From the NCBI GenBank assembly GCA_951406725.2, contig OX597823.1, positions 68,076,001 to 68,140,000 on the forward strand: a DNA stretch of 64,000 nucleotides. The letters are read 5' to 3'. Under the pieces are notes generated by a model, which was given only the letters and a program-made list of their open reading frames with translations, was not told the origin of the DNA and ran no database searches. This document shows, one piece after another, positions 36,382 through 39,000 of this stretch. The stretch's first letter is position 1. Every line of letters begins with the position of its first letter. Source of the stretch: Octopus vulgaris (Eukaryota). Made by a program: the position numbers and the translations under genes.

Positions 36382-36702
36382 GGCATGTAGCTTAGTGGTT
36401 AAAGTATTCAGCTCATGATTGTAAGGTCATGAGTTCGATTCTTGGCAGTGCATTTTGTCCTTGAACAAGACACTTTATTTCACATTTCTCCAGTCCACTC
36501 AGCTGGCAAAATTGAATTGTACCCATAATTCAAACAGCTAGCTTTCTCACATTTTGTGCCATGCTGAATCTTGCTGAGAACTATGTAGAGAGCATGCATG
36601 TTTGTAGAGCACTCAGCCACTTGCATATTAATTTCATGAGCATGCTGTTCCATTGATTGGATCAACTGGAATTTTCACTGTCGTAACCGATGGAGTGTCA
36701 GT
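36382..36702 (+). mobile_element. tRNA-derived SINE (family C)
   Basis: A box TAGCTTAGTGG, B box GAGTTCGATTC, TCCTTGAACAAGACACTT core; the 3' part recurs inverted at 50538-50720. Confidence 0.8.
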
Positions 36703-38301: not shown

Positions 38302-38346
<45 letters not shown>

Positions 38347-38433
38347 AAGGGTGGAAAGGAACACACGAGTTGATATATATGAAAAAACAAGTCAAAAATA
38401 GAAAATGCTAAGATAATTTTATAGTGAATCTTT

Positions 38434-38471
38434 CAGTACCGGTTTCGGTCATTTTGAGACCTTTTCAACTG
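38434..38471 (-). ncRNA. Minimal hammerhead-like motif, variant core
   Basis: Mirror copy of 38727-38764. Confidence 0.55.
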
Positions 38472-38726
38472 TAACGATTAAATAATTAAATTTAGAAAAA
38501 TTAGAAGAAAAGTTTTTTTAAAGGAATATTTCTATAGTAGTGTTCAGATATAAGTGGCATTCTGCCTTTCTCTGACTCCCTTGTTTGCACTTGTGTGTTC
38601 GAGGTCGTTGCAAACAAGGGAGTCAGAGAAAGGCAGAATGCCACTTATATCTGAACACTACTATAGAAATATTTCTTTAAAAAAACTTTTCTTCTAATTT
38701 TTCTAAATTTAATTATTTAATCGTTA

Positions 38727-38764
38727 CAGTTGAAAAGGTCTCAAAATGACCGAAACCGGTACTG
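38727..38764 (+). ncRNA. Minimal hammerhead-like motif, variant core
   Basis: CAG-TTGAAAA-GGTC-tcaaaat-GACC-GAAA-CCGG-TA-CTG: stems I and II, palindromic ACCGGT stem III, GUA cleavage triplet. Confidence 0.55.
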
Positions 38765-38813
38765 AAAGATTCACTATAAAATTATCTTAGCATTTTCTAT
38801 TTTTGACTTGCTT

Positions 38814-38848
<35 letters not shown>

Positions 38849-39000
38849 GACCCATATATATATATATACACTTACATATATATATATATATATATAGACT
38901 CAATAGTCATATACCTCTGAATGAAGTGTTAGTCAAGTACAGAGCAATAATAAGAAAAAAGATGACAAAGGAATAAACAATTATCTTATGAACTTTATTA

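What the first reader, a model, noticed from the sequence alone, without database searches (positions are those of the whole stretch)
38373..38825. Very young 450-bp palindrome with a non-canonical hammerhead core
Seen: arms of about 217 bp differing at only two positions that I could find, embedded in (TA)n. Both arms carry CAG-UUGAAAA-GGUC/GACC-GAAA-CCGG-UA-CUG. All helices and the GUA site are intact, but the core reads UUGAAAA rather than CUGANGA, in both arms. Established: hammerhead positions 3 and 8 form a tertiary pair (C3-G8), and U3-A8 is the compensatory alternative. Inference: a covariant, possibly active ribozyme in a recently mobile Penelope-dependent element.
Basis: partly seen in the sequence, partly recalled or inferred. 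Interest (0 to 1): 0.8.

Follow-up and report, generated by a model that had tools for sequence, protein, structure and literature searches.

The report
Inverted Penelope retrotransposon ends with hammerhead
The palindrome is two short, back-to-back end fragments of a common Penelope-type retrotransposon, each carrying a predicted self-cleaving hammerhead RNA with a known alternative U3-A8 core pair; it is an ordinary insertion, and the ribozyme here would likely be locked in a hairpin.

Summary
In detail: 217-nt arms, two mismatches, and a UUGAAAA hammerhead core in both arms. It is not a small dependent element. Each arm is the 5'-truncated 3' end (pseudo-LTR) of an autonomous Penelope-like element (RT + GIY-YIG, Neptune-like). 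U3-A8 is fixed: 1,799 of 1,808 genomic motifs. It also holds in an older subfamily, a sister family (68% protein identity) and a third repeat family, with different stems, which supports selection on a working fold. All of this is described already: U3-A8 in Schistosoma PLE hammerheads and opposite-strand pairs (PMC4209133), and inverted copies, tails and (TA)n targets (PMC8557442). At this locus a read-through RNA is predicted to bury the core in a 217-bp hairpin, so activity here is unlikely. Side findings: A-to-G hyper-changed hammerheads in four presumed RNA runs and in one genomic copy (likely ADAR editing), and a conserved -1 frameshift-like ORF overlap. Verdict: new member of a known kind, low interest.

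The parts
38305..38342 (.). left (TA)n target microsatellite
38343..38372 (-). PLE 'tail' (30 nt, then TATATAT at 38373-38379); matches the first bases after the 5' pLTR of a full-length copy; on this end only
   Evidence: window against L060 junction; tail at exactly one end in 36 of 37 pairs
38380..38610 (-). left arm: 5'-truncated 3' end (pLTR) of the PLE; includes the 19-nt apparent spacer
38427..38479 (-). type I hammerhead, U3 at 38468, A8 at 38463, predicted cut between 38437 and 38436
38609..38610 (.). 2-nt overlap (TG) joining the 5' ends of the two arms
38609..38818 (+). right arm: 5'-truncated 3' end (pLTR) of the same PLE, no tail
38719..38771 (+). type I hammerhead: stem I CAG/CUG with bulged extension, core UUGAAAA 38730-38736 (U3 38730, A8 38735), stem II GGUC/GACC 38737-38751, GAAA 38752-38755, self-complementary ACCGGU helix III, predicted cut after GUA between 38761 and 38762
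38818..38896 (.). right imperfect (TA)n target microsatellite

Best explanation
The palindrome is a 5'-truncated, diverging inverted insertion of an autonomous Penelope-like retrotransposon (likely Neptune clade) in a (TA)n repeat, and its hammerhead is a predicted dimer-type PLE ribozyme with the compensated U3-A8 pair that would likely be inert at this locus. [quoted passage not shown] Inferred mechanism: the element's protein cut the (TA)n target, and both DNA ends primed reverse transcription on RNA of one source element at the two internal start sites (one gives the tail, the other does not). Both cDNAs stopped early and were joined through a 2-nt overlap. Inferred role of the ribozyme: in tandem pLTR-ORF-pLTR transcripts two hammerheads would pair through ACCGGU and cut after GUA, probably with help from the element's protein. 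In a read-through RNA of this palindrome the core would instead be paired in a long hairpin, a likely ADAR substrate.
For: Upstream of the same 3' end, other copies carry RT (RVT_1, E 7.8e-9) and GIY-YIG (E 1.1e-4). L060 holds two hammerheads 4,386 nt apart in partial tandem; L063 and L065 hold unbroken 784-aa RT-EN frames. DKG, YLDD, a CX4CxxC linker and CCHH motifs are present. 22 of 26 close pairs among the first 100 listed motifs are diverging inverted. The tail lies at exactly one end in 36 of 37 pairs; among 25 resolved pairs the tail arm is shorter in 10, longer in 9, tied in 5, and one has a tail call on both ends, so neither arm is simply a copy of the other. Arm differences average 2.0 against 5.26 after re-pairing, 0 of 5,000 permutations (18 pairs; 34 of 37 pairs gave 1.32 against 4.19). 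U3-A8: 1,799 of 1,808; older subfamily 23 of 25, family B 26 of 27, family C 15 of 16, with different stems and positions 7. Helix III dimer -8.3 kcal/mol; whole-palindrome fold -351.5 kcal/mol with core unpaired probability at most 0.003. Literature: PMC4209133, PMC8557442, PMC11167929, PMC3088659.
Against: No cleavage assay; min-HHRs cleave weakly in vitro (PMC4209133), and in the anole PLE the ribozyme was not needed for insertion (PMC11167929). [quoted passage not shown] Rfam does not call the motif. The clade rests on motifs and a by-eye comparison, not a tree. The window's own junction was not bridged by any listed contig, so reads neither confirm nor refute it. The two-priming steps are inferred from architecture. 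Whether this locus is transcribed is unknown.
Confidence: 0.88

Rival explanations
1. The palindrome is a small non-autonomous element (retrozyme- or SINE-like) that is mobilised as a unit by Penelope proteins and carries its own active ribozyme.
For: Short palindromes of 170-320 nt between anchors recur, several with near-equal arms; the motif is high-copy.
Against: Junctions and arm lengths differ from locus to locus, from about 50 nt to over 3 kb; the sequence is continuous with the RT-EN ORF in other copies; no second locus with this junction was seen among the 50 matches listed or the loci held; the core is predicted to be fully paired.
Confidence: 0.05
2. The insertion is a PLE inverted copy, but made by one cDNA folding back and copying itself (snap-back) rather than by two primings.
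For: The arms share subfamily variants; junctions show 0-3 nt overlaps or short gaps; 5 of 25 resolved pairs have equal arms.
Against: In 10 of 25 resolved pairs the tail is on the shorter arm, so each arm holds sequence that the other lacks.
Confidence: 0.12
3. UUGAAAA is a dead core: two fixed mutations carried along by an element that does not need its ribozyme.
For: Ribozyme mutants did not impair insertion in vitro in the anole PLE (PMC11167929); Naiad PLEs spread without canonical hammerheads (PMC8557442); the genome is AT-rich.
Against: Four lineages keep U3 and A8 with paired but different stems I, II and III, a compensatory G-C to A-U change in stem II, and a free position 7 (A, U, C); U3-A8 is reported as natural and active in vitro (PMC3088659, citing earlier work).
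Confidence: 0.12
4. The palindrome is an assembly or long-read fold-back artefact, or a MITE/foldback DNA transposon.
For: Near-perfect symmetry, (TA)n flanks; no listed contig bridges the junction.
Against: The flanks are not mirrored, the tail is on one end only, the arms differ at two sites and in length; 37 loci show the same build with different junctions; the arms are retroelement 3' ends, not fixed terminal repeats.
Confidence: 0.03

Closest known systems
Minimal hammerheads of metazoan PLEs, including the U3-A8 variant of Schistosoma mansoni Cercyon (Cervera and de la Pena 2014, PMC4209133)
   Same: Type I hammerhead in the pLTR, short palindromic helix III (dimer type), G10.1-C11.1, U3-A8 core (about 1,300 hits reported in S. 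mansoni), pairs on opposite strands 100-700 bp apart.
   Different: Here stem II is 4 bp, there is no extra base between 9 and 10.1, the motif is almost invariant (1,765 identical 38-mers), and the host element has the Neptune/Nematis linker zinc finger.
Neptune-clade EN+ Penelope-like elements (architecture as in Craig et al. 2021, PMC8557442)
   Same: RT then GIY-YIG, CCHH and CX2-5CxxC motifs, partial tandem pLTR, inverted 5'-truncated copy, 30-40 bp tail at one end, (TA)n targets.
   Different: This family was not found named in the papers searched; it has a 410-aa upstream ORF overlapping the RT-EN frame in -1. Craig's Fig. 1 legend mentions a frameshifted ORF1, but the figure was not visible, so which clades it covers is unknown.
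Poseidon from Anolis carolinensis (Frangieh et al. 2024, PMC11167929)
   Same: AT-rich target, tail explained by two internal RT start sites, both target strands cut and extended, protein-assisted hammerhead.
   Different: Different clade, canonical C3-G8 core, single ORF that starts inside the ribozyme.
Non-LTR retrozymes of animals (bioRxiv 10.64898/2026.07.22.740005; passages and listing only)
   Same: PLE-derived, hammerhead-bearing short sequences.
   Different: Retrozymes are tandem non-autonomous repeats; this is a dispersed inverted truncation of the autonomous element.

Membership tests
EN+ Penelope-like element | RT domain with DKG and catalytic DD motif | tested here: met
   In longer copies of the family: RVT_1 E 7.8e-9; DKG at 159, YLDD at 429. 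The window copy is truncated and has no RT (tblastn empty).
EN+ Penelope-like element | C-terminal GIY-YIG endonuclease with CCHH finger | tested here: met
   PF01541 E 1.1e-4, at the curated cut-off; LIY..CxxC..YIG and two His.
EN+ Penelope-like element | pseudo-LTR from partial tandem arrangement | tested here: met
   L060: 5' pLTR, ORFs, 3' pLTR, hammerheads 4,386 nt apart. One such copy among the 20 loci.
EN+ Penelope-like element | inverted 5'-truncated copy and 30-40 bp tail at one end | tested here: met
   22 of 26 close pairs inverted; tail at one end in 36 of 37 pairs; present in the window.
Neptune/Nematis type | CX2-5CxxC linker finger before the nuclease | tested here: met
   CX4CxxC at residue 650.
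Neptune clade (against Nematis) | RT phylogeny | tested here: inconclusive
   No labelled references were available to the tools (homologues carry no clade names). By eye the RT3 and RT4 motifs resemble the Neptune rows more than the Nematis rows of Craig Fig. S1; (TA)n targeting fits.
Type I hammerhead ribozyme (PLE dimer type) | core 3-UGAN-8-A and GAAA with a 3-8 Watson-Crick pair, NUH site | tested here: met
   U3-A8, GUA; fixed in 1,799 of 1,808.
Type I hammerhead ribozyme (PLE dimer type) | paired stems I and II, palindromic helix III | tested here: met
   Free fold of one arm forms stem II and the stem I extension; ACCGGU duplex -8.3 kcal/mol; stems differ but pair in three other lineages.
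Type I hammerhead ribozyme (PLE dimer type) | extra unpaired base between 9 and 10.1 (usual in min-HHRs, not essential) | tested here: not met
   A9 is followed directly by G10.1.
Type I hammerhead ribozyme | match to an Rfam hammerhead model at gathering score | tested here: not met
   (only a tRNA-like hit elsewhere in the window).
Type I hammerhead ribozyme | self-cleavage after H17 | not testable with these tools
   Only contigs were available; they cannot show RNA ends.
Non-LTR retrozyme / non-autonomous element | fixed short unit, tandem repeats, no ORF in the family | tested here: not met
   Variable 5' ends, continuous with the RT-EN ORF.
MITE / foldback DNA transposon | fixed terminal inverted repeats shared by all copies | tested here: not met
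   Many copies are single-armed and arm lengths vary.

The most novel reading that the evidence does not exclude
In this genome U3-A8 is the fixed core of at least three hammerhead families, and the inverted insertions turn the element's own ribozyme region into double-stranded RNA that ADAR hyper-edits across A6-A9, destroying the core; such edited RNA can be copied back into the germ line (L162, 18 A-to-G changes and no other substitution in about 115 aligned bases). Penelope palindromes would then be a major source of editing substrate in this animal and a self-limiting brake on the element.
Probability: 0.35. Interest if true: 0.55.

Novelty: new member of a known kind. Interest (0 to 1): 0.27.

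Why it matters
The finding as posed matters little: the core variant, the inverted pair, the tail and the target are all described for Penelope-like elements. The family is still a good test case. It has about 1,800 near-identical copies, unbroken RT-EN frames, natural single (C3-A8, U3-G8) and double (C3-G8) variants, and sister families with the same core, so it can be used to ask whether PLE hammerheads cut in vivo, an open question in PMC8557442 and PMC11167929. The pair statistics support a two-priming origin of inverted copies. The A-to-G footprints link PLE palindromes to ADAR editing.

Tried and rejected
Rfam scan of the window: no hammerhead call. Read support for the junction: four DNA-type runs of three organisms hold the family, but their contigs are short and none listed bridges the junction; presence, absence and polymorphism stay open. 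No RNA holder is on record, which is no evidence on expression; contigs of presumed RNA runs cannot show a cut site. A C3-G8 sub-lineage: rejected; only one true copy (C13), the second hit is unrelated sequence. '++' pair L061 as a tandem unit: rejected, no ORF between the copies. Family C as a PLE: no tblastn match to the RT-EN protein in the 18 family-C loci tested, so unassigned. First arm-identity and tail count overran short junctions and was redone; one search dropped 3 of 37 pairs (L029, L071, L073). Clade by homologue names: uninformative. The 26 open frames of 100 aa or more in the window were listed but not scanned, so no host gene is assigned. Literature searches without a relevant hit: 'hammerhead ribozyme + U3A8', 'Penelope-like + Neptune + ribosomal frameshift', ADAR-edited genomic copies, octopus + Penelope + hammerhead (only Craig 2021 relevant). 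Lunse et al. 2017 on PLE hammerhead dimers is not held and was not read. Earlier findings of the scan: none.

Full report
Observation. The inverted repeat is at the stated place: arms 38373-38589 and 38609-38825, 217 nt, two mismatches. Each arm holds a type I hammerhead with core UUGAAAA, stem II GGUC/GACC, GAAA, ACCGGU and a GUA site; U3 is at 38730 (+) and 38468 (-). Rfam at gathering thresholds does not call it. The genome has 2.8 Gb in 227 contigs; I take it to be an octopus from its size, AT microsatellites and mollusc-associated homologues, which is inference and recall, not a tool result.

What it is. A search with the right arm gave 1,380 candidates, of which 40 were scored, most at 98-100% identity. 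All 30 loci fetched share the 3' end and differ in how far they reach 5'. Longer copies run on through a 3' UTR into an ORF with RT and GIY-YIG domains. L060 is a full unit: 5' pLTR, a 410-aa ORF1, the RT-EN frame and a 3' pLTR, with hammerheads 4,386 nt apart. L063 and L065 have unbroken 784-aa RT-EN frames with DKG, YLDD, a CX4CxxC linker and CCHH. Craig et al. (PMC8557442; read: introduction, passages, supplement part 54 of 59 and search hits; figures not seen) give the linker finger as the mark of Neptune and Nematis; by eye the RT motifs are nearer Neptune. The window has no RT match, so its copy is only two 3' ends.

Anatomy of the locus. Left of the palindrome, 38343-38372 is the reverse complement of the bases that follow the 5' pLTR in L060: the PLE tail. 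The right arm has none. The 19-nt spacer is the longer 5' reach of the left arm, and the arms meet at a 2-nt overlap. This build is common: among the first 100 listed motifs on chromosome 1, 22 of 26 neighbours within 6 kb are diverging inverted pairs. Craig et al. describe the inverted 5'-truncated copy, the 30-40 bp tail at one end and (TA)n targets. Cervera and de la Pena (PMC4209133; read: parts 1-2 of 4, supplement file 2 part 1 of 3; supplement file 1 could not be searched) report hammerhead pairs on opposite strands 100-700 bp apart.

How it arose. The tail is at exactly one end in 36 of 37 pairs. Among 25 pairs with a resolved junction the tail arm is shorter in 10, longer in 9, tied in 5, and one pair has a tail call at both ends; 12 pairs were unresolved. 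The arms of a pair are more alike than re-paired arms: 2.0 against 5.26 differences, 0 of 5,000 permutations, in 18 pairs from the chromosome-1 list; 1.32 against 4.19 in 34 of 37 pairs, a set partly chosen for likeness to the window. So both arms come from one source element, yet often each holds sequence the other lacks. Frangieh et al. (PMC11167929; read: parts 1-2 of 4) show that a PLE protein cuts and extends both strands of AT-rich DNA and starts at two internal RNA sites that bracket the tail. I infer two primings, one per DNA end, early stops and joining by microhomology. Snap-back copying fits the shared variants but not the 10 pairs with the tail on the shorter arm.

Age. This pair differs at 2 of 217 sites; 11 of the 18 unbiased pairs differ at none of 128 columns. 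The family is recent, and near-identical words occur in runs of three organisms, but this copy is not unusually young. Polymorphism and the junction itself could not be settled with contigs. An artefact is unlikely, given unmirrored flanks, the one-sided tail and 37 loci of the same build.

The U3-A8 core. With positions 3, 7 and 8 free, 1,808 motifs match; 5 are not U3 and 5 not A8, one being both, so 1,799 are U3-A8. These counts cover only copies that are otherwise exact over 35 nt. No variant at 38730 or 38735 reaches 5% in four DNA-type runs. An older subfamily (81% identity) keeps the core with stem II AGUC/GACU; sister family B (67.8% protein identity) has UUU-UUGAUAA-GGUUC/GAACC-GAAA-CAUG-UU-AAA; family C has ACG-UUGACAA-GAGG/CCUC-GAAA-CUGCAG-UC-CGU. 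Tallies anchored outside the core give U3-A8 in 23 of 25, 26 of 27 and 15 of 16. A canonical C3-G8 motif was seen in another repeat (L017). It is not new: Cervera and de la Pena found U3-A8 in S. mansoni Cercyon PLEs, about 1,300 hits, and Perreault et al. (PMC3088659; passages) report natural U3-A8 and cite its activity in vitro.

Activity. One arm folds into stem II and an extended stem I, and ACCGGU self-pairs at -8.3 kcal/mol, as expected of a dimer-type ribozyme. The two motifs here are on opposite strands, so one transcript holds one ribozyme and its antisense; the predicted fold is a -351.5 kcal/mol hairpin with the core unpaired at most 0.3% of the time. Against any strong role: min-HHRs cut weakly, and the anole ribozyme needs protein and is dispensable for insertion in vitro.

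Editing. Contigs of 4 of 4 presumed RNA runs (four studies, two organisms; RNA is the tool's guess) have loose ends that read as the hammerhead with A-to-G changes at A6-A9, and in some also in loop II and stem I. That form is absent from the assembly. The nearest genomic match, L162, is a short family copy between (TA)n runs with 18 A-to-G changes, no other substitution and one 13-nt gap in its aligned core, counted on the printed alignment; it is the only match to a pattern that needs G at both 7 and 8. Rare variants in 105 of 107 ordinary copies show no A-to-G excess (5 of 50). I read this as ADAR hyper-editing of double-stranded family RNA, once copied back into the genome. Porath et al. 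(PMC5625713; passages) report heavy editing of lizard Penelope and very high hyper-editing in octopus. The runs are from other individuals, and the source loci are unknown. Two searches found no paper on ADAR-marked genomic retrotransposon copies; the library is partial.

Verdict. It works like, and by the features tested is, a PLE inverted insertion with a PLE hammerhead of the known U3-A8 kind. It is a new member of a known kind; interest 0.27.

Noticed in passing
L162 (G000:C12:48450178-48450211, minus strand): Genomic family copy of about 130 nt between (TA)n runs with 18 A-to-G changes over the hammerhead and no other substitution in the core: likely an ADAR-edited RNA copied into the germ line.
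   Followed up: partly
L060:5234-5239, runs X13, X16, X6, X7: Loose ends read as the hammerhead with A6-A9 changed to G in four presumed RNA runs; this form is not in the assembly.
   Followed up: partly
L060:3895 (minus); L063, L065-L067, L035; L150-L155: ORF1 overlaps the RT-EN frame in -1 at CAT TTT TTA GAC in 7 of 7 family A rows (two rows are one locus) and 5 of 6 family B copies: candidate programmed frameshift at U UUU UUA; no stimulatory structure was tested.
   Followed up: partly
L055 (G000:C13:524775-524809): A single C3-G8 double variant among 1,808 motifs; about 0.007 expected from the single-change counts (4 C3, 3 G8; hand calculation).
   Followed up: partly
L058/L059 (G000:C23:31260734-31261086): Both arms of an inverted pair carry the same U3-C8 change, so it was present in the template.
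   Followed up: partly
L135-L149: Family C: a high-copy repeat (2,532 candidates) with a U3-A8 hammerhead and no RT-EN match nearby; parent element unknown.
   Followed up: partly
window 38591-38600 against 38355-38366; L057: The tail has 8 nt complementary to the stretch where this and several other short arms stop (about 140-155 nt upstream of the ribozyme); L057 joins an inverted tail to an arm at that match. Possible truncation hot spot.
   Followed up: no
L033:2462-4844; L035:4476-6827; L072:3947-4999: Other long RT-like frames beside family copies, apparently further PLE families.
   Followed up: no
window 36383-36452: Weak tRNA match (30.4 bits) with a non-tRNA tail; probably the head of a tRNA-derived SINE.
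   Followed up: no
one search hit list: Close homologues of the RT-EN protein are filed under bivalve gill-symbiont assemblies, probably host contamination.
   Followed up: no
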